Source: an uncultured Methanosarcinales archaeon (GTDB taxonomy: Archaea; Nanobdellota; Nanobdellia; Woesearchaeales; GW2011-AR9). Taken from it: a stretch of 64,000 nucleotides of DNA. Shown here piece after piece: positions 56,024 to 64,000 of this stretch (position 1 is its first letter; every line of letters starts with the position of its first letter). The stretch spans positions 11,327 to 75,326 of the forward strand of contig CAYSWQ010000001.1 of assembly GCA_964434885.1 (NCBI GenBank), given 5' to 3'. The translations under genes and the position numbers were made by a program. The notes under the pieces were generated by a model that saw only the letters and a program-made list of their open reading frames with translations, was not told the DNA's origin and searched no databases.

Positions 56024-56391
56024 TAGAGTAGAGTGGAATAAGCCACCTTCTGTCAGACCCAAAATATTCATTGAATATCGATGGTCTGTTTTAGCATTCT
56101 ACTAAGCGTGTCTAAGCACTTGCACCAACCGGGTCCAGAAAAAGCCTAAGCTTTTTAGGACCCCCGAGTTATACTCGGAGGGTTTCGCCGTTTCATCGTT
56201 CCCTTTGAGGACGTCGATGGATTAACTCGCTTATTTCTCAACAAGCTTCGCCATTTTCATTCCATAACTCAAAGGACGTGTCGTTTCTAAGCCAGAGCCA
56301 AGAGATTTCCTCTTCTCCGAAGAGCGGTCTTTGTGTGGTGGGTGGACTTTCCTCAGTCAAATTGACCGTTAGCTAAATACCACTACTACTC
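56024..56391 (-). ncRNA. rnpB: RNase P RNA (archaeal type A-like)
   Basis: Minus-strand transcript contains CR-I/P4 5' strand GAGGAAAGUCCACC and CR-V/P4 3' strand ACAGAAGGUGGCUUAU; 5' GAGUAGUAGUGG and 3' CCACUCUACUC form P1; the region is protein-free and GC-enriched relative to flanks. Confidence 0.75.
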
Positions 56392-58849: not shown

Positions 58850-60196
58850 TTATGGAGTAGTTAAGTTCAAACGTTGTCCATCTTTCATTAAATGAACTGT
58901 TTTGTCTTGTACATAACCCATCTCAACTGCTAAATCTGCTAAATGGTGAGAAAGTTTGTATTCACAATGAGAAGGAATGATGTGTTTTGGTTTTACTAAC
59001 TCAAATAGATCTCGATGATCTTCTCTAGCGGCATGACCTGAAACATGGATATCTCTAAAGATTCTTGCCCCTTTTTGTCGTAAAGCACTTTCTAATTCGG
59101 CCCGGTTGTCTTTATTTAAAGTAACTGGAATGACTGAACAACTGAAAACAACTAAATCTCCTGGCTTCAAATCAAACTTTAATTCTCCACGGGCCATTCT
59201 TGGTAATATTGCTCGTGGTTCTCCTTGATGTCCGGTTACAACCATTAAATATTTTCCTTTATTTTTAGAGGCCTGTTGCAAGAAACTTTGAATTTGTCTT
59301 CTTTTTTTGATTAGTTTTACATCTTTACGAAAATCAATAATATCTAAGTTTTGTCCAGCTAAAGTATATTTGGATAAAGACCTTCCTAAGAAAACAATTT
59401 GTCTTCCTAGTTTTTTACCCATTTCAACAATACTTTTTAATCTAGCTAAATGAGAAGCGAAAGTAGTTACAATCAAAGCGTGATTTTGGGAATTAACTCC
59501 TAGTAAAACGTCTTTTAACATCTGTTTGGCTACTGATTCAGAAGGCATCTTCTTATGATCATGAGCATATAATGATTCGCAAATTAAAGCGAGAACATTT
59601 TTATTTCCTAGTTCTTCTAGTCTTTTGAAATTTGGTTTCTTTCCCAAAGTTGGTTGACGATCGAACTTGTAATCATTAGCATACATAATAGTTCCATATT
59701 TGGTGTGTAGCGCAATCAAAGAAGCTTGTGGGATTGAATGTGTAACATTAATTAGTTCTAGAGTGAGGTTCTTGGAAAGTTGATATATAGAGTTAAGATT
59801 TAAACCAATAACTTTGTTAGGAACATCAATATGGTCATCTCTAATCATCCCTTTCAAAACTTCAGCAGTATAAGGGGTACAAATAACTGGTGCTTTTGGA
59901 AAATGAGAACTACAAAAAGGAATTGCCCCAATGTGGTCTAAATGACCGTGAGCAGGAACGATGGCTTTGACTTTGTCATGCCAATCTTTGATTAACCCCA
60001 TATCTGGAACAGCCTCAACATTTAATAATTCTTCATATTGTTTAGGGCTGATGTCTTCTCTGTCTTCAGAATAACTGATGTAGTTTTCCATGTGCAAACC
60101 AATATCAAAAATAACAACTTCATCATCTACTTTGATGGCAGTACAATTCTTTCCAGTTTCGGAGTAACCTCCAACTGCACATATTTCTACTGGCAT
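58850..60196 (-). CDS. Beta-CASP family ribonuclease (metallo-beta-lactamase fold; aRNase J / aCPSF2-like)
   Basis: HGHLDH motif, beta-CASP motifs; start taken at MPVEICAVGG (60196). The ORF-track start at 60301 would read into the structured GC-rich element. Confidence 0.75.
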   Translation of the reverse strand: MPVEICAVGGYSETGKNCTAIKVDDEVVIFDIGLHMENYISYSEDREDISPKQYEELLNVEAVPDMGLIKDWHDKVKAIVPAHGHLDHIGAIPFCSSHFPKAPVICTPYTAEVLKGMIRDDHIDVPNKVIGLNLNSIYQLSKNLTLELINVTHSIPQASLIALHTKYGTIMYANDYKFDRQPTLGKKPNFKRLEELGNKNVLALICESLYAHDHKKMPSESVAKQMLKDVLLGVNSQNHALIVTTFASHLARLKSIVEMGKKLGRQIVFLGRSLSKYTLAGQNLDIIDFRKDVKLIKKRRQIQSFLQQASKNKGKYLMVVTGHQGEPRAILPRMARGELKFDLKPGDLVVFSCSVIPVTLNKDNRAELESALRQKGARIFRDIHVSGHAAREDHRDLFELVKPKHIIPSHCEYKLSHHLADLAVEMGYVQDKTVHLMKDGQRLNLTTP

Positions 60197-60248
60197 TTTA
60201 AGAGAAAAATAGTTTTGGTTTAAAAATGTTTGTTTAAAAGAAATAAAT

Positions 60249-60460
60249 GTGCGCGGCAGGGCTTTCGAAAAAAGTTGCACTTTTTCTAAATCATTAAGCA
60301 CAGCTTAATATTCGAACCTGCGTAGGTACTAAACCAACGGATGGCTCCCGAGTATTTCATCAGTCTGGATAGACCTCTTCACTCAATGACTTGAGTATGG
60401 ACTCATTAGCACCTTAATGCTAAACGAACCGTCCCGTTTGACCACTCCGGCACGCGCACA
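60249..60460. ncRNA. Candidate structured non-coding RNA of unknown class (about 210 nt)
   Basis: GC-enriched block in an AT-rich spacer; ends are perfect inverted complements (GUGCGCG...CGCGCAC); internal perfect palindromes (AUUAAGC-UGU-GCUUAAU, GAAAAAG-UGCAA-CUUUUUUC); K-turn-like GAGU-GAAGA ... UGAUGA-AAU-ACUC; TATA-like boxes on both sides. Confidence 0.4.
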
Positions 60461-60561
60461 AGTAAAATGATAAATTATTGTGTTTTTATAAAGTTATTGT
60501 AGAAAAAGAAGTGTTAAATTAGTACTATATAAATACTAAAAAAAGTAGGAATAAAAAATAA

Positions 60562-61044
60562 TTAAGAAAGACTGCTTAGTTTCTTTTCGATTTCTCCAAG
60601 TTCTTTTTCCAAAGAATCTAGTTCTGGATGAACTGGTGGAGCTGGTTCTGGCTCAGGTTCTTGTTCAGGCACAGGTTCTGGCTTAGGTTCTGGTTTTGGT
60701 TTTAACTCAGGATGTTCAGCCTCAATCTCTTTCTTGATCCGACCATAGGTTCTTTCAGCTTTAAGTTTGCTTCGAGGTAACAATCTTCTTAGTTTATTGA
60801 TAGTTAATTTAATTTCTCGTAGGTCTTCTTTTAATAAACCAATGGTGAATGTTTTCTCTTCTTTAACTTTCTTGAACTCTTCATAACTTTGTAAGAATTG
60901 AATTACTTCTCGTGTTGGCTCTAAAACATTTCTACGTAACTCTACAGGATCACCCAAACCAATAAAATACGGTTCTTTTGGTTTAGCAACTGGTTTTCTT
61001 TTAGAAGTTGTTCTCTTCCGTTTGGTTGTTTTTTTCTTAGCCAT
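60562..61044 (-). CDS. Hypothetical basic/helical protein with PEPK-repeat tail (member 3 of motif-sharing triplet)
   Basis: K/R-rich N-terminus, motif PYFIGLGDPVEL, helical core, KPKPEPKPEPVPEQEPEPEP repeat, short C-terminal helix. Confidence 0.4.
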   Translation of the reverse strand: MAKKKTTKRKRTTSKRKPVAKPKEPYFIGLGDPVELRRNVLEPTREVIQFLQSYEEFKKVKEEKTFTIGLLKEDLREIKLTINKLRRLLPRSKLKAERTYGRIKKEIEAEHPELKPKPEPKPEPVPEQEPEPEPAPPVHPELDSLEKELGEIEKKLSSLS

Positions 61045-61046
61045 TC

Positions 61047-61274
61047 TTAAAATCGTTCTGGTTCATGCAATGAATTTTCTATTGTCTTGATACGATTGTC
61101 TATTTCAGCTAAAGCGCCTTGCCAACTTTGTAATTGAGCGTCTTCTTCTTGTTTTAGCTGATTGATTTTATTTAATGTTTCTTTAGCAGAAGCTAACCTA
61201 GCTTTTAGAGTAGCAGTGGTATTAATAACTTCCTCATATTCTTCAATTTTAACAAAAACAGGCATTTTTTCCAT
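61047..61274 (-). CDS. Hypothetical small coiled-coil protein (member 2 of triplet)
   Basis: 75 aa; N-terminal PVFVKIEEYEEV motif then a single long helix. Confidence 0.4.
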   Translation of the reverse strand: MEKMPVFVKIEEYEEVINTTATLKARLASAKETLNKINQLKQEEDAQLQSWQGALAEIDNRIKTIENSLHEPERF

Positions 61275-61280
61275 TTTGAA

Positions 61281-61721
61281 TCACCTTTTAAAGATTAGAT
61301 CATCCATGTATAATAATCTCTCATGGATTTTTCTTAACTCTTTTCTTAATTTTTCATAATTTTTATTTTCATTATACTCTGAATTTTCAAGTTTTTCTGT
61401 AGTTAAATCCAACTCTAAAACATGAGTCTTAATATCGCTGGCATCCTTGAGAAGTTCTTGATAAGATTGGACTCGAAGAAAGAAAGGATAATTAAGAGCA
61501 GGAGTACTCATCGTTGTTGGTTTAGGAAAACTTTTTTCTTCAGAAATTTCTGTAGGTAGTGGTTCCATGTCAGGCATCTGAGGAGGTTCCTCCAATCCAA
61601 CAGATTTTTTAATATCTTCTGGAGCAGGAATTTTACTAGTTGATTCAGGGAATTTTAACAAATCATCTGAATGTTCAGGTAAAGGTACTGTCACTTTCTT
61701 TTTTTTAAAAAACCATCCCAT
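61281..61721 (-). CDS. Hypothetical protein with disordered acidic/Pro N-terminus and helical C-terminus (member 1 of triplet)
   Basis: 146 aa; motif PFFLRVQSYQEL at the start of the helical part. Confidence 0.4.
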   Translation of the reverse strand: MGWFFKKKKVTVPLPEHSDDLLKFPESTSKIPAPEDIKKSVGLEEPPQMPDMEPLPTEISEEKSFPKPTTMSTPALNYPFFLRVQSYQELLKDASDIKTHVLELDLTTEKLENSEYNENKNYEKLRKELRKIHERLLYMDDLIFKR

Positions 61722-61820
61722 TTTATCTATTTAAAAAGAAATACTCTTATAAACTTTGTTGAGTATTTTATAATAGTAAAAATAGAAAAGTATTTATTGT
61801 GGATAAAATTCCCGTGGAAG

Positions 61821-64000
61821 ATGAGGTGGAAAGTTGTTAATTGGATTTTTTGTTTTTGGTTATTTATTCTGAGTGTTGAAGGGAGTGTACTGATTAATGA
61901 AGTTATGTATGATCCTGGGCAGTGTGCAGATAGTTATTGTGAATGGGTAGAGTTGTATAATTCAGGAAATGAAACTTTTGATTTGCAAGGTTGTTTTTTT
62001 GATGGAGATAATTTATCTGGAAACATTTCTGCTAATGAATATTTAGTTTTAGTTAGAAATAAAGATAATTTTCAAAAGTATTTTGGTGGGAATAATTTAG
62101 TTGAGATTTCTTTGAGTTTAGTTAATAAAGGAAAAGAATTGAAATTAAATGGTAATTGTTCAGATATTTTTGATTATAGTTCTTTTGTTAGTTTAGCTAA
62201 GGGTAACAACTATACTTTAGAAAGAAATAACAAAGGAAAATGGGAAAAAAGTTTAGTTGATGGTGGAACTCCGGGAAAGAAAAATAGTGTTGTTAATTTT
62301 AATCAAGATTATTCTAAATTAAAAATTACTGAGGTGATGGTTGATCCTTTTGGTAAGGATAATGAACAAAAACCACTTGGAGAGTGGATAGAAGTTTATA
62401 ATTCTGGGGGGAAACCAATTAATTTAGGTGGGTTGGTGTTGTATGATTCGGAAGATGATCACGAATTATTTATTAGTCAAAGTAATTTTGATAAAGTTGT
62501 GTTGGGTGGTGGAGAATATGGGGTAATATATAGGAACCGAGATTCAGATTTTGATTTGAGTAAAACAAAAGATAAAGTGAGGTTATATACTGGATATCCT
62601 CTTTCTAATGCGGTTTTGATAGATCAAGTTAGTCTTTCCAATTCAAAAGAAGGAATGAGTTGGAGCAAATTCGGAAATAATTGGTATCAAACTAAACCAA
62701 CTCCGGGAAAAGAGAATATTTATACAGAGAAATGTGATTGGATGATTGATTTGGAATTAGATAATTCGATCTTTCAAAATAAAGGTTTGGATTTTAAAGT
62801 TAATGTAAAAAGAAATTTTGGAGTAGAAGAAAATATTTCTGTTTCTGGTAAGATTGAAGATTTGTTTGGGAAAGTTGTAAGAAGTTATACTCCCTGGACA
62901 AATTACCGGATAGTTGGTTCTAGTAGCAAATCTTATTCTCCAAATTTAAAAGAAGGAAATTACCAATTAATTTTTGAATTGAGTGGATTGAAGTGTAATG
63001 ATTCGGAGTGGGAAAATAACCAAGTTCGTCGATTAGTTTCAATCAATCCGGCATATCAAAAAAATGATTCTAAATTGGAGATTGAGAGATTGTATTTGGG
63101 TTCGGATAATTCAGTAGAATGGGGAGATCAATTTCAAATTAAATTAAATTTGTATAAAGGACAAAATAGTAAATCTACTGTAGAGGTTTATGTTGAGAAA
63201 GACGGAGAAGTGATAAGCAAAAGAACAAAAATTAATCTGTATGATGAATATAAAAATTATCCTTTGGTTTTGCCGATACAATTAATTCCTAATTGTAATG
63301 AAAAAATAGAAGATGGAAAAGGAAAACTTGTTTTGAAAGGATTAGGTTTGGAAGTGGGAAAAGAATTTGAAATTTCGGGAGTAGATAAAGAGGTTTGTAA
63401 AGATTATTTAGATTATGTAAAAGAAGACAATAAGAAAAAAGATAAGATTCGGAAACAAAATGCTTATCAAGTTTTGGAATTTCCTAGGACCTTGTATTCA
63501 GGCGAGGTTTATTCAGTAAAAGTACAGCTTTTGGGAGATGCTGATGAACATGATTTTAAAGTTTGGAGTTATCTTTACAAAGGCAATAAATGTGTTTCTT
63601 GTTTTGGTGGAAATCGAGAAAGTAATTTAATTGATTTTAAATTGAAAGAAGATGAAGTTAAGCAAATTGAGATGTTGATTAAAGTTGATGAAGAAGTTTC
63701 AATGGGTGAGTATCGATTGAAAGTTAAGTTGAATAAAGATGGATTAAAAACAAATCGGGAGTTGATGAAAAGCGTTTATATTAAACCTAAGGATAAGAAG
63801 AAAGTAATTAATCAATCTACTTCTTTATTTGGGATCTCCGAATTGAATGATAAATCTGTGAATGAGAGAACAAGTGTTGATTCTCGGAAAGAAAAAATAA
63901 TTCATGAACTTCCTGGAATTGTGGTTTATGAATCTAGTTCGCAGAAAGCAAATAATTTAATTCCTTATTTATTGGTGGGTGTTTTTGGATTATTAAGTGT
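61821..64000 (+). CDS. Large surface protein with signal peptide and two lamin-tail domains, 3' partial (runs off the window)
   Basis: MRWKVVNWIFCFWLFILSVEG signal; LTD1 VLINEVMYDPGQCADSYCEWVELYNSG; LTD2 LKITEVMVDPFGKDNEQKPLGEWIEVYNSGG; open frame to the window end with a hydrophobic stretch (IPYLLVGVFGLLS) near the edge; not in the ORF track because it has no stop. Confidence 0.55.
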   Translation, partial: MRWKVVNWIFCFWLFILSVEGSVLINEVMYDPGQCADSYCEWVELYNSGNETFDLQGCFFDGDNLSGNISANEYLVLVRNKDNFQKYFGGNNLVEISLSLVNKGKELKLNGNCSDIFDYSSFVSLAKGNNYTLERNNKGKWEKSLVDGGTPGKKNSVVNFNQDYSKLKITEVMVDPFGKDNEQKPLGEWIEVYNSGGKPINLGGLVLYDSEDDHELFISQSNFDKVVLGGGEYGVIYRNRDSDFDLSKTKDKVRLYTGYPLSNAVLIDQVSLSNSKEGMSWSKFGNNWYQTKPTPGKENIYTEKCDWMIDLELDNSIFQNKGLDFKVNVKRNFGVEENISVSGKIEDLFGKVVRSYTPWTNYRIVGSSSKSYSPNLKEGNYQLIFELSGLKCNDSEWENNQVRRLVSINPAYQKNDSKLEIERLYLGSDNSVEWGDQFQIKLNLYKGQNSKSTVEVYVEKDGEVISKRTKINLYDEYKNYPLVLPIQLIPNCNEKIEDGKGKLVLKGLGLEVGKEFEISGVDKEVCKDYLDYVKEDNKKKDKIRKQNAYQVLEFPRTLYSGEVYSVKVQLLGDADEHDFKVWSYLYKGNKCVSCFGGNRESNLIDFKLKEDEVKQIEMLIKVDEEVSMGEYRLKVKLNKDGLKTNRELMKSVYIKPKDKKKVINQSTSLFGISELNDKSVNERTSVDSRKEKIIHELPGIVVYESSSQKANNLIPYLLVGVFGLLS

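What the first reader, a model, noticed from the sequence alone, without database searches (positions are those of the whole stretch)
60249..60460. Structured GC-rich element of unknown class; neighbouring ORF start corrected
This is a roughly 210-nt island of much higher GC than its surroundings, lying between two minus-strand genes. Its ends are perfect inverted complements (GUGCGCG...CGCGCAC), which would form a closing helix. Inside are several perfect hairpins (AUUAAGC-UGU-GCUUAAU; GAAAAAG-UGCAA-CUUUUUUC; UGAGU-CCAU-ACUCA). There is also a K-turn-like internal loop with a UGAUGA box opposite GAAGA. A TATA-like tttataaaaa lies about 25 nt upstream on the minus-strand side. I could not fit it to a tRNA cloverleaf or to SRP RNA; there is no AGCAG/GNAR helix-8 signature. 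The ORF-track start of the beta-CASP RNase (60301) reads straight through this element, so 35 N-terminal residues are almost certainly spurious. It could be a K-turn-containing sRNA, an H/ACA-type guide (Nop10 and presumably L7Ae are present in this organism), or a lineage-specific RNA.
Basis: seen in the sequence. Interest (0 to 1): 0.6.

Follow-up and report, generated by a model that had tools for sequence, protein, structure and literature searches.

The report
Three-intron tRNA-Leu gene, DPANN archaeon
The GC-rich island is a leucine tRNA gene split by three small introns, which is why gene finders miss it; that is a known kind of gene in these tiny archaea, but one intron carries a conserved protein-binding kink whose job is unknown.

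Summary
On the minus strand, 60459-60248 is a tRNA-Leu(CAA) gene of an uncultured Woesearchaeon (DPANN), interrupted by three bulge-helix-bulge (BHB) introns: 30/31 (32 nt), 37/38 (47 nt) and 59/60 (49 nt). Splicing in silico gives an 84-nt class-II cloverleaf that ARAGORN calls tRNA-Leu(CAA). A relative carries the same gene uninterrupted at the syntenic position (92% identity to the spliced product). Other relatives carry 1-3 introns at recurrent sites. The 30/31 BHB helices covary strongly (95.7% paired; covariation 0.60 vs 0.23 in shuffles). Two of its hairpins lie in the T-loop intron and one spans the intron-1/anticodon-exon boundary. Its K-turn is real, lies in the canonical intron, and recurs in about 45 related tRNA-Leu introns with a covarying stem. 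The RNase J start correction is right (ATG 60196). SRP, H/ACA and stand-alone C/D readings are not supported. All three intron positions and multi-intron tRNA genes are documented, so this is a new member of a known kind. The open point is the K-turn. A segment just upstream pairs with the anticodon exon and places C34 where a box D' guide would; this is suggestive, not shown.

The parts
60248..60459 (-). Complete tRNA-Leu(CAA) gene: 84 nt of exons plus 128 nt of introns, with discriminator A73 at 60248 and no encoded CCA
   Evidence: The in-silico spliced product is called tRNA-Leu(caa) by ARAGORN. The same exon/intron layout is recovered blind by spliced alignment to an intron-less orthologue, score 106 against a null maximum of 37.
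60429..60459 (-). Exon 1 (31 nt): acceptor 5' strand GUGCGCG, U8 G9, D arm CCGG-AGUGGUCAA-ACGG, G26, and anticodon-stem positions 27-30
   Evidence: It is 97% identical to L088 exon 1.
60397..60428 (-). Intron 1 (32 nt) at tRNA position 30/31. BHB: central helix GGAC (60434-60431, exon) with GUCC (60402-60399); bulges GG|U (60430-60428) and AU|A (60398-60396); inner helix UCGUU (60427-60423) with AAUGA (60407-60403)
   Evidence: Across 23 species the helices are 95.7% paired against 19-51% in slid controls, 7 of 10 pairs change on both sides, and the covariation score is 0.600 against 0.227, reached by 0 of 500 shuffles.
60390..60396 (-). Exon 2, a 7-nt micro-exon ACUCAAG (positions 31-37: A31, C32, U33, anticodon C34 A35 A36, G37)
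   Evidence: It is identical in relatives with and without flanking introns.
60343..60389 (-). Intron 2 (47 nt) at the canonical position 37/38. The BHB is relaxed: helix CUCA (60395-60392) with GGAG (60348-60345) gives 3 bp plus an A35.G mismatch; bulges AG|U and CC|A
   Evidence: Most relatives have UGAG here, which gives a perfect 4-bp helix.
60350..60386 (-). K-turn module inside intron 2: UUGAGU (60386-60381), G, n-strand AAGA (60379-60376), C-stem hairpin GGUCU-AUCC-AGACU (60375-60362), bulge GAU (60361-60359), GA (60358-60357), AAU, ACUC (60353-60350)
   Evidence: The same architecture occurs in about 45 of 63 canonical introns of related tRNA-Leu genes. The stems are 85% paired against 24-49% in slid controls, with 5 pairs changed on both sides and covariation reached by 0 of 500 shuffles. 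RNAalifold recovers the covarying C-stem.
60311..60342 (-). Exon 3 (32 nt): A38, anticodon-stem 3' strand UCCGU, long variable arm UGGUUUAGUACCUAC, T-stem GCAGG, and T-loop positions U54-A59
   Evidence: It is 100% identical to L088 and L048.
60262..60310 (-). Intron 3 (49 nt) in the T-loop at 59/60.
   Evidence: All 12 loci with an intron here end ...CGAA-NN|. Hairpin AUUAAGC/GCUUAAU becomes AUUACGC/GCGUAAU in L048.
60248..60261 (-). Exon 4 (14 nt): C60, T-stem 3' strand CCUGC, acceptor 3' strand CGCGCAC, and A73
   Evidence: The acceptor stem covaries among relatives: GUGCGCG/CGCGCAC, GUGGGCG/CGCCCAC, GCGGACG/CGUCCGC and GCGGAGG/CCUCCGC.
60483..60492 (-). TATA-like box TTTATAAAAA, about 25-30 nt upstream of tRNA position 1
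   Evidence: Sequence. Its role as a promoter is inferred from the usual archaeal TATA-to-start spacing.
60236..60247 (-). T-rich tract TTTATTTCTTTT immediately after A73, a likely archaeal oligo-T terminator
   Evidence: Sequence. Function is inferred.
58850..60196 (-). RNase J (beta-CASP) gene with the corrected start ATG 60196-60194, giving 448 aa
   Evidence: Homologues are 443-451 aa, cover 99-100% of the 448-aa form and all begin MP(V/I)EIC. Pfam finds RNase_J_b_CASP and RMMBL. The gene call on ENA contig L002 is 448 aa.

Best explanation
The element is the gene for tRNA-Leu(CAA) of an uncultured Woesearchaeon (DPANN archaea), read on the minus strand from 60459 to 60248. It is transcribed from its own TATA-box promoter as a precursor of about 212 nt that contains three protein-spliced (bulge-helix-bulge) introns: one in the anticodon stem (30/31), one at the canonical site (37/38) and one in the T-loop (59/60). 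The archaeal splicing endonuclease EndA cuts in the 3-nt bulges on either side of each 4-bp helix, and an RNA ligase joins the four exons (31, 7, 32 and 14 nt). The product is an 84-nt class-II tRNA, to which CCA is added. The canonical intron also folds into a stem that carries a K-turn capped by a hairpin. That K-turn most likely binds L7Ae while the precursor exists. Shown here: exon/intron layout, tRNA identity, orthology, and conservation and covariation of the BHB and K-turn helices. Inferred: transcription, cleavage by EndA, ligation, and L7Ae binding.
For: (1) Removing the three segments gives a product that ARAGORN calls tRNA-Leu(caa). It has a 7-bp acceptor stem, a 3-bp D stem plus G13.A22, a CUCAAGA anticodon loop, a long variable arm, a UUCGAAC T-loop and A73. 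(2) The spliced sequence matches one contiguous stretch of the syntenic locus L011 at 92% over 73 nt, and ARAGORN calls that stretch an intron-less tRNA-Leu(caa). L007 has the same gene with one T-arm intron, and L009/L010 have three introns (D-loop, 37/38, 59/60). (3) A spliced alignment that knew nothing of my model recovers introns of 32, 47 and 49 nt in the window. It finds 0-3 introns of at least 14 nt in 114 distinct related genes, at recurrent sites. The score is 106 against a null maximum of 37.4. (4) Junctions obey the BHB rule of a 4-bp helix, two 3-nt bulges and a cut after the second bulge nucleotide, for introns 1 and 3. Intron 1 helices are 95.7% paired with a covariation score of 0.600 against 0.227, reached by 0 of 500 shuffles. 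All 12 T-loop introns end CGAA-NN|. (5) Against L088, exons are 93-100% identical and introns 63-82%. (6) Positions 30/31, 37/38 and 59/60 and multi-intron genes are documented in archaea (PMC4090602). DPANN including Woesearchaeota were reported to have many disrupted and undetected tRNA genes (PMC5829648). (7) An EndA gene (PF02778 plus PF01974, 176 aa) is present in a related MAG. (8) The K-turn stems covary.
Against: There is no transcript, splicing or aminoacylation evidence. ARAGORN and the Rfam tRNA model do not detect the unspliced gene, as expected for three introns. The BHB of the canonical intron is relaxed in this organism, with an A35.G mismatch in the 4-bp helix. The outer helix of intron 1 and the inner helix of intron 3 are weak (HBh' and hBH forms). 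A generic BHB scan is unspecific (46 hits in 231 nt), so the motifs alone would not carry the case. EndA was found only in a relative, not in this 64-kb window. The thermodynamic folds prefer an exon:intron hairpin that is incompatible with the 37/38 BHB.
Confidence: 0.93

Rival explanations
1. Sub-element question, compatible with the main explanation. The K-turn in the canonical intron is simply an L7Ae-binding architectural handle. L7Ae clamps the long intron arm, disfavours the competing exon:intron hairpin, and presents the relaxed 37/38 BHB (and the 7-nt micro-exon) correctly to EndA.
For: The K-turn core is invariant in the aligned introns: GA on both strands, with a 3-nt bulge ending in U. 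The C-stem and NC stem covary, at 85% paired and 0 of 500 shuffles, and the C-stem is recovered by RNAalifold. When the n-strand changes, the b-strand compensates (GAGU/ACUC to AAGU/ACUU in L116 and L060) even though this breaks pairing with C34. L7Ae is a universal archaeal K-turn binder (PMC5539422 abstract).
Against: In a second intron subfamily (L026, L067, L075, L033, L113) the b-strand lacks the complement, yet UUGAGU is kept. Intron-less orthologues show the module is dispensable for making the tRNA. No binding data exist.
Confidence: 0.45
2. Sub-element question, compatible with the main explanation. The K-turn is a minimal box C'/D'-like half-guide. The 6-7 nt just upstream of the n-strand (D'-like) box pair with the precursor's own anticodon arm, so that fibrillarin/Nop5/L7Ae 2'-O-methylates C34 (CAA-type genes) or position 39 (UAG-type genes). 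This would be a cut-down analogue of the tRNA-Trp intron guide.
For: UUGAGU-N-[NUGA] lies at a fixed distance (10-11 nt) from G37 and is complementary to A31-A36, which places C34 opposite the fifth nucleotide upstream of the box. Pairing is 86.3% against 23-43% in slid controls, with one compensatory G31-C in L085. In Leu(UAG) introns GGUGU-N-[AUGA] pairs with AC|ACC and places C39 at N+5. Pairing is 85.7% against 34-59%, 3 pairs change on both sides, and 6 of 500 shuffles reach the score. Positions 34 and 39 are exactly the sites guided by the tRNA-Trp intron, and Pyrococcus has trans C/D sRNAs for C34 of tRNA-Leu(CAA) (PMC7994747 and PMC4090602). The D-hairpin-C topology equals that of a C'/D' motif.
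Against: There is only one K-turn and no terminal C/D pair; a C box would have to lie in the exon. The duplex is 6-7 bp rather than 10-12. In the window the boxes are AAGA and GAUGAAA, so 3b.3n is A.A and 4b.4n is A.A rather than the U.U and G-C typical of C/D. L116 and L060 break the C34 pair. The exon is nearly invariant, so most of the signal is conservation, which shared ancestry can produce. Fibrillarin and Nop5 were not found in the window or in about 1 Mb of related DNA, though that sample is uninformative.
Confidence: 0.2
3. The locus is a decaying tRNA pseudogene: a former tRNA-Leu gene invaded by insertions that are no longer removed.
For: The gene is undetectable by standard tools. 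The 37/38 BHB has a mismatch. There is no expression evidence.
Against: All cloverleaf pairs and universal nucleotides are intact after splicing. Exons are 93-100% conserved while introns diverge. BHB helices are kept by compensatory changes across 23 species. The same three-intron layout persists in other species, L088 and L048. The sequence is identical in five independent contigs. A promoter-like TATA and a T-tract are in place.
Confidence: 0.04
4. One reading: a stand-alone K-turn sRNA, an H/ACA or C/D guide RNA, an SRP RNA, or a lineage-specific structured RNA closed by the terminal helix.
For: The K-turn is real, a Nop10 gene lies in the window, and the terminal helix is perfect.
Against: No Rfam family of any class matches, even permissively. 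The terminal helix is the acceptor stem and covaries as such. Every nucleotide is explained as tRNA exon or BHB intron. There is no ACA box or pseudouridylation pocket, and no second C/D motif. Relatives carry the same gene with no introns at all.
Confidence: 0.02

Closest known systems
Multi-intron tRNA genes of Crenarchaeota/Thermoproteales and the disrupted tRNA genes of DPANN archaea (Sugahara et al. 2007/2008 as cited in PMC4090602; Kaneta et al. 2018, PMC5829648)
   Same: BHB-type introns at canonical plus non-canonical positions in one gene. Positions 30/31, 37/38 and 59/60 are all on the published list. Both strict and relaxed (HBh', hBH) motifs occur. The genes are missed by standard tRNA finders. 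The lineage was already reported to show increased tRNA gene disruption.
   Different: This gene and family (Woesearchaeota tRNA-Leu with 0-3 introns of at least 14 nt and a 7-nt anticodon micro-exon) did not appear in the papers I could search. The introns are longer (32-49 nt) than the 12-25 nt medians quoted for archaea.
Box C/D sRNA nested in the tRNA-Trp intron of Euryarchaeota (Clouet d'Orval 2001; Singh 2004; cited in PMC4090602 and PMC7994747)
   Same: A long canonical (37/38) intron carrying an L7Ae-type K-turn. Sequence next to the D'-like box is complementary to the tRNA's own anticodon arm, in a register that points at position 34 (and at 39 in the UAG paralogues).
   Different: The Trp intron has a complete C, D', C', D set and two 10-12-nt guides. 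Here there is a single K-turn, non-consensus boxes, only 6-7 bp of complementarity, and no evidence of methylation.
Simple L7Ae K-turns with a hairpin-capped C stem (for example the D-hairpin-C box C/D constructs used for L7Ae structures, and K-turns of archaeal RNase P RNA; PMC4245976, PMC5499556)
   Same: The n-strand NNGA runs directly into a Watson-Crick C stem. The b-strand has a 3-nt bulge followed by GA. The NC stem lies on the other side.
   Different: The location is new, inside a tRNA-Leu intron between the BHB and an apical hairpin. The 3b.3n pair is A.A or A-U rather than U.U or A.G. Binding is untested.
Split and tri-split tRNA genes (Nanoarchaeum equitans, Caldivirga maquilingensis)
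   Same: The tRNA is broken at BHB-type junctions, including 30/31 and 37/38, in a DPANN or crenarchaeal setting.
   Different: Here all pieces are contiguous and collinear in one transcription unit, so they are cis-spliced introns rather than trans-spliced halves.

Membership tests
tRNA (class II, tRNA-Leu) | Cloverleaf with a 7-bp acceptor stem and D, anticodon and T arms of canonical size | tested here: met
   ARAGORN on the spliced 84-mer calls tRNA-Leu(caa) with a clean cloverleaf.
tRNA (class II, tRNA-Leu) | Universal nucleotides U8, A14, G18-G19, U33, purine 37, G53, U54-U55-C56, A58 and C61 | tested here: met
   Read directly from the spliced sequence GUGCGCG-UG-CCGG-AGUGGUCAA-ACGG-G-ACGGA-CUCAAGA-UCCGU-...-GCAGG-UUCGAAC-CCUGC-CGCGCAC-A.
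tRNA (class II, tRNA-Leu) | Long variable arm and discriminator A73 (archaeal Leu identity elements, from established knowledge) with a Leu anticodon | tested here: met
   Variable arm UGGUUUAGUACCUAC, A73 at 60248, anticodon CAA.
tRNA (class II, tRNA-Leu) | Orthology to an uninterrupted tRNA gene | tested here: met
   L011:2524-2608 is an intron-less tRNA-Leu(caa) at the syntenic site, 92% identical to the spliced product over 73 contiguous nt.
tRNA (class II, tRNA-Leu) | Expression, maturation and leucylation | not testable with these tools
   No transcriptome or biochemical data are available here.
Archaeal BHB (EndA-spliced) intron | 4-bp helix flanked by two 3-nt bulges on opposite strands, with cuts after the second bulge nucleotide - intron 1 (30/31) | tested here: met
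   GGAC/GUCC with bulges GG|U and AU|A and a 5-bp inner helix; the outer helix is weak (HBh'). Covariation is shown.
Archaeal BHB (EndA-spliced) intron | Same motif - intron 3 (59/60) | tested here: met
   UUCG/CGAA with bulges AA|U and AG|C; the outer helix is the 5-bp T stem; the inner helix is weak (hBH). All 12 homologous introns end CGAA-NN|.
Archaeal BHB (EndA-spliced) intron | Same motif - intron 2 (37/38) | tested here: inconclusive
   The bulges AG|U and CC|A are correctly placed, but the helix CUCA/GGAG has an A35.G mismatch in the window. Most relatives have UGAG, which gives a perfect helix.
Archaeal BHB (EndA-spliced) intron | Excision at the predicted sites restores the exact mature sequence | tested here: met
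   Position 60 is C, as in intron-less relatives.
Archaeal BHB (EndA-spliced) intron | Splicing endonuclease encoded by the organism | tested here: inconclusive
   EndA (PF02778 plus PF01974) was found in related MAG L050. It was not found in the 64-kb window or its flanks; the rest of the genome was not available.
K-turn (L7Ae-binding) | Tandem G.A/A.G positions next to a 3-nt bulge, with the n-strand GA abutting a Watson-Crick C stem | tested here: met
   AAGA|GGUCU...AGACU|GAU|GA in the window. The GA dinucleotides are invariant in 29 aligned introns, and the C stem covaries.
K-turn (L7Ae-binding) | NC helix continuing from the G.A pairs | tested here: met
   GAGU/ACUC in the window. In the window-like subfamily it is 78.6% paired, with 3 pairs changed on both sides. 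It is not formed in a second subfamily.
K-turn (L7Ae-binding) | Kinked geometry and L7Ae binding | not testable with these tools
   Needs a gel-shift assay or a structure.
Box C/D guide sRNA (as in the tRNA-Trp intron) | Two K-turn motifs (terminal C/D and internal C'/D') | tested here: not met
   Only one K-turn is present in the intron or precursor. There is no CUGA about 12 nt after the b-strand, and a C box would fall in the exon.
Box C/D guide sRNA (as in the tRNA-Trp intron) | Box consensus RUGAUGA / CUGA | tested here: not met
   The window has AAGA and GAUGAAA. Some relatives have CUGA or AUGA.
Box C/D guide sRNA (as in the tRNA-Trp intron) | Antisense element upstream of D/D' with the target at N+5 | tested here: inconclusive
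   6-7 bp of complementarity place C34 (CAA type) or C39 (UAG type) at N+5. This is shorter than known guides.
Box C/D guide sRNA (as in the tRNA-Trp intron) | Fibrillarin and Nop5 in the genome | tested here: inconclusive
   None in the window. The sample is too small to conclude anything.
H/ACA guide RNA | Hairpin with a pseudouridylation pocket, an upper-stem K-turn and a 3' ACA box | tested here: not met
   No Rfam H/ACA match at any threshold. There is no pocket or ACA in a suitable position, and the sequence is fully accounted for otherwise.
SRP RNA | Helix 8 / helix 5 signature | tested here: not met
No Rfam SRP match.

The most novel reading that the evidence does not exclude
The conserved K-turn hairpin in the canonical intron of Woesearchaeota tRNA-Leu genes may be a stripped-down, single-K-turn methylation guide acting on its own precursor. 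The 6-7 nt upstream of its D'-like strand would pair with the anticodon arm, putting C34 (Leu-CAA) or nucleotide 39 (Leu-UAG) at the N+5 position for fibrillarin. That would be a second, minimal case of an intron that encodes the modification of its host tRNA. Until now this is described only for tRNA-Trp, and it would give a selective reason for keeping these introns in reduced genomes.
Probability: 0.2. Interest if true: 0.65.

Novelty: new member of a known kind. Interest (0 to 1): 0.4.

Why it matters
First, it resolves an 'unknown structured RNA' into an essential, ordinary gene and fixes a wrong protein start. Second, it gives a concrete, well-supported example of the hidden disrupted tRNA genes that Kaneta et al. 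(PMC5829648) said must exist in DPANN genomes. The family-wide picture helps anyone curating tRNA sets of Woesearchaeota MAGs: 114 genes with 0-3 introns of at least 14 nt at five recurrent sites, and a 7-nt anticodon micro-exon. Third, there is a practical warning. ARAGORN in intron mode turns the two-intron Leu genes into phantom Gly(ccc), Phe(gaa), Val or Gln genes, so automated inventories both lose Leu(CAA) and gain false isoacceptors. Fourth, the conserved K-turn in tRNA-Leu introns is a testable lead on why some tRNA introns are kept.

Tried and rejected
**Detection on the native sequence.** Rfam at gathering and permissive thresholds on the region and the whole window gave nothing but RNase P RNA; the weak miRNA and snoR35 hits are noise. 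ARAGORN on the native sequence, with and without intron mode, gave nothing.

**Partial splicing.** Removing only the T-loop intron makes ARAGORN call 'tRNA-Gly(ccc)' with an 81-nt intron. I rejected this as an artefact because it lacks nucleotide 26 and puts a class-II variable arm on a Gly tRNA.

**Generic BHB scan.** It returned 46 candidate motifs in 231 nt, which is too unspecific to serve as evidence on its own.

**Uninformative look-ups.**
- Same-strain contigs L001-L005 are 100% identical across the element.
- The look-up of P0018 returned no DNA.
Only EndA hit.
- Literature searches for fibrillarin or Nop5 in Woesearchaeota/DPANN found nothing usable.

**K-turn finder.** The first version mis-picked in about a third of loci. 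I replaced it with a search restricted to the canonical intron.

**Other hidden tRNAs in the window.** A GC-island scan plus permissive Rfam found none; the islands are coding or RNase P RNA.

**K-turn module in other tRNAs.** It was not found in introns of non-Leu tRNAs in the sampled loci.

**Readings considered and rejected.**
- A full box C/D RNA spanning intron 1, exon 2 and intron 2: no C or D box at the required spacing.
- An H/ACA reading: no pocket and no ACA box.
Full report

Yes. Window 60248-60460 is a GC island. It is 46.7% GC, against 15.7-20.7% in the immediate flanks and 31.5% for the window as a whole. It lies between two minus-strand genes.

- the terminal inverted complements GUGCGCG (60459-60453) and CGCGCAC (60255-60249);
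- the three hairpins;
- the UGAUGA/GAAGA internal loop;
- the upstream TTTATAAAAA (60492-60483).

The 212-nt RNA folds better than shuffles: -68.9 kcal/mol, z = -3.27, matched by 1 of 200 shuffles. No Rfam family matches, either at gathering thresholds or permissively. The only hit in the window is RNase P RNA at 56027-56387. ARAGORN finds no tRNA anywhere in the 64 kb, with or without its intron mode.

**2. What is it?**

Read on the minus strand, the island begins with a 7-nt acceptor strand, U8, and a class-II D arm (CCGG-AGUGGUCAA-ACGG). Further on it contains GCAGG-UUCGAA, and it ends CCUGC-CGCGCAC-A. That is a T arm and an acceptor 3' strand with an insertion in the T-loop.

Applying the archaeal bulge-helix-bulge (BHB) rule locates three introns. 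The rule is a 4-bp helix flanked by two 3-nt bulges, with cuts after the second bulge nucleotide (described in PMC4090602).

| Intron | Window coordinates | Length | tRNA position |
|---|---|---|---|
| I1 | 60428-60397 | 32 nt | 30/31 |
| I2 | 60389-60343 | 47 nt | 37/38 |
| I3 | 60310-60262 | 49 nt | 59/60 |

They leave exons of 31, 7, 32 and 14 nt. The 84-nt spliced product is called tRNA-Leu(caa) by ARAGORN, with a clean cloverleaf, a long variable arm and A73. Exons are 60.7% GC and introns 37.5%, which explains the 'island'.

**3. Comparative proof**

The organism is an uncultured Woesearchaeon (DPANN). The contig recurs in marine metagenomes, and the neighbouring RNase J has its best named homologues in Woesearchaeota/Nanoarchaeia. 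Same-strain contigs are identical across the element and so add nothing.

Relatives whose RNase J is 68-74% identical keep local synteny. At the corresponding place:
- L011 carries an uninterrupted tRNA-Leu(caa). My spliced sequence matches it contiguously, at 92% over 73 nt.
- L007 carries the same gene with a single 33-nt T-arm intron.
- L009 and L010 carry it with three introns, at the D-loop, 37/38 and 59/60.

A pattern from exon 3 retrieved 118 further loci from Woesearchaeota, Nanoarchaeia and Pacearchaeota MAGs. A spliced alignment of the intron-less reference to every locus recovered the window's three introns blind, at 32, 47 and 49 nt. Counting only insertions of at least 14 nt as introns, it found 114 distinct genes:

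| Introns per gene (at least 14 nt) | Genes |
|---|---|
| 0 | 28 |
| 1 | 33 |
| 2 | 42 |
| 3 | 11 |

The introns cluster in the anticodon loop (69), the 5' anticodon stem (34), the D arm (20), the T-loop (15) and the T-stem (7).

The real locus scores 106. The maximum is 37.4 in 589 random window segments and 35.8 in 400 shuffles of the element. L088 and L048, from other species, share the window's exact three-intron layout. Against L088, exons are 93-100% identical and introns 63-82%.

**4. Are the splice motifs real?**

- **Intron 1.** The central helix is GGAC (exon positions 25-28) with GUCC. The bulges are GG|U and AU|A. The inner helix is UCGUU/AAUGA. Across 23 species these ten pairs are 95.7% paired, against 19-51% when the partner is slid. 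Seven pairs change on both sides. The covariation score is 0.600 against 0.227, reached by 0 of 500 shuffles. Pair 28:H' is C-G in 9 species, U-G in 7 and U-A in 6.
- **Intron 3.** The T stem is the outer helix. The central helix is UUCG (positions 54-57) with CGAA, and the bulges are AA|U and AG|C. All 12 loci with an intron here end CGAA-NN|. The T-loop is invariant, so covariation cannot be tested. The intron's own hairpin does covary: AUUAAGC/GCUUAAU becomes AUUACGC/GCGUAAU in L048.
- **Intron 2.** The bulges are correctly placed (AG|U and CC|A), but the helix is relaxed in this organism. CUCA/GGAG gives 3 bp plus an A35.G mismatch. Most relatives have UGAG and a perfect helix.

A generic BHB scan is too unspecific to count as evidence by itself. 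A splicing endonuclease gene with both Pfam domains (176 aa) is present in related MAG L050. None lies in this window.

**5. The K-turn**

Its parts, 5' to 3', are:
- NC strand GAGU (60384-60381);
- n-strand AAGA (60379-60376);
- C-stem hairpin GGUCU-AUCC-AGACU (60375-60362);
- bulge GAU, then GA (60361-60357);
- NC strand ACUC (60353-60350).

The same module occurs in about 45 of 63 canonical introns of the related tRNA-Leu(CAA) and tRNA-Leu(UAG) genes. It was not seen in introns of other tRNAs in the sampled loci.

I built register-anchored pseudo-alignments from the loci. These are my own construction, and the three C-stem pairs were required by the finder. In them the GA dinucleotides are invariant. 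In the window-like subfamily the stems are 85% paired against 24-49% slid, five pairs change on both sides, and 0 of 500 shuffles reach the covariation score. RNAalifold on the unmodified sequences recovers the covarying C stem. L7Ae binding is an inference from the motif.

**6. A second pairing, and the speculative reading**

The six nucleotides just 5' of the n-strand (UUGAGU) are complementary to exon positions A31-A36. This hairpin is the preferred thermodynamic fold. It is 86.3% paired across 24 introns against 23-43% slid, but shows only one compensatory event, G31-C in L085.

If the n-strand is read as a box D', C34 lies opposite the fifth upstream nucleotide. In the Leu(UAG) introns a different conserved segment, GGUGU, pairs across the 3' junction (AC|ACC) and places nucleotide 39 at that position. 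That pairing is 85.7% against 34-59% slid, with three pairs changed on both sides, and 6 of 500 shuffles reach the score.

Positions 34 and 39 are the two sites guided by the box C/D RNA in the tRNA-Trp intron. That RNA is described as the unique case of an intron encoding a modification unit (PMC4090602). Pyrococcus uses trans C/D sRNAs for C34 of tRNA-Leu(CAA) (PMC7994747).

Against a guide function:
- there is only one K-turn;
- the boxes are non-consensus in the window;
- the duplex is only 6-7 bp;
- L116 and L060 break the C34 pair while compensating within the intron;
- there is no information on fibrillarin or Nop5.

I therefore treat the guide as a 20% possibility and an architectural L7Ae handle as the more likely role. 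Neither is shown.

**7. The neighbouring ORF**

The GTG-started 483-aa ORF (60301) runs through exon 4 and intron 3. All RNase J homologues are 443-451 aa, cover 99-100% of the 448-aa form and begin MP(V/I)EIC. One public gene call on the same sequence is already 448 aa.

**8. Comparison with what is known, and verdict**

Multi-intron tRNA genes with BHB introns at 30/31, 37/38 and 59/60 are documented. DPANN lineages, including a Woesearchaeota genome, were reported to show increased tRNA gene disruption and incomplete tRNA sets that imply undetected disrupted genes (PMC5829648). This locus is such a gene, so it is a new member of a known kind.

The SRP, H/ACA and stand-alone C/D or K-turn sRNA interpretations fail their membership tests. 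The conserved K-turn in tRNA-Leu introns did not turn up in my searches of the open-access library. That library is incomplete, so this is not proof that the module is new.

Confidence that the element is a three-intron tRNA-Leu(CAA) gene is 0.93. The remaining doubt is about function (a possible pseudogene), not about what the sequence encodes.

Noticed in passing
window 56027-56387 (-): Archaeal RNase P RNA (RF00373, 105.5 bits, E 1.8e-28), with large insertions relative to the model. It is the only Rfam hit in the window.
   Followed up: no
loci L024, L061, L086, L093, L106, L107, L116, L123 and others; window after removing only intron 3: ARAGORN in intron mode treats intron 1, the 7-nt anticodon exon and intron 2 as one intron. 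It then reports these tRNA-Leu genes as Gly(ccc), Gly(tcc), Phe(gaa), Glu(ttc), Val, Gln and so on. Automated tRNA inventories of Woesearchaeota MAGs will therefore lose Leu isoacceptors and gain phantom ones.
   Followed up: partly
window 60562-61721 (-); L007:42-1177, L009:1-947, L010:2432-3632, L011:1212-2425: A cluster of three small genes with no Pfam match (about 146, 75 and 160 aa; the last is Lys/Pro/Glu-rich) always sits immediately upstream of this tRNA-Leu gene in the relatives examined.
   Followed up: no
L064:3708-3902 (-): The canonical intron is 111 nt: the usual K-turn module followed by an extra insertion of about 55 nt containing two further hairpins.
   Followed up: no
L039 (tRNA-Leu precursor, 193 nt): There is an additional 43-nt intron near the start of the D-loop, with duplicated GCCGGAG / UCCGGAG at its borders, on top of introns at 30/31 and 37/38. 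The 37/38 intron here and in L048 lacks the K-turn module.
   Followed up: no
L007:~1340-1372: The orthologous gene has its only intron (33 nt) in the T arm at about 53/54 rather than 59/60. Intron position therefore differs between close relatives at the same locus.
   Followed up: partly
record titles of L016, L019, L024, L027, L033, L035, L039 and others: Many MAGs carrying this Woesearchaeota-type tRNA-Leu gene are titled 'uncultured Methanosarcinales archaeon'. This is probably a taxonomic mislabel of binned genomes.
   Followed up: no
L017:1160-1272 (-), L078:985-1088: tRNAs called 'Ile(tat)' (probably CAU-type) carry canonical introns with UGAUCA...CUGAGA or CUGAG motifs. These may be a different C/D-like element.
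   Followed up: no
L050:4888-5418: A 176-aa splicing endonuclease (PF02778 plus PF01974), the size of a single alpha-type subunit, lies about 4 kb from that MAG's tRNA-Leu gene. That tRNA-Leu gene is intron-less.
   Followed up: partly
window 61750-62900: There is strong positive GC skew (+0.4 to +0.8 in 100-nt windows) over the gene for a large LTD-domain protein on the plus strand.
   Followed up: no
window ~5.6 kb (L131:14833-14961): A Nop10 gene (42 aa, PF04135) is present, next to eIF2-alpha, S27e and L44e. No L7Ae, Cbf5, fibrillarin or Nop5 lies in the window.
   Followed up: partly
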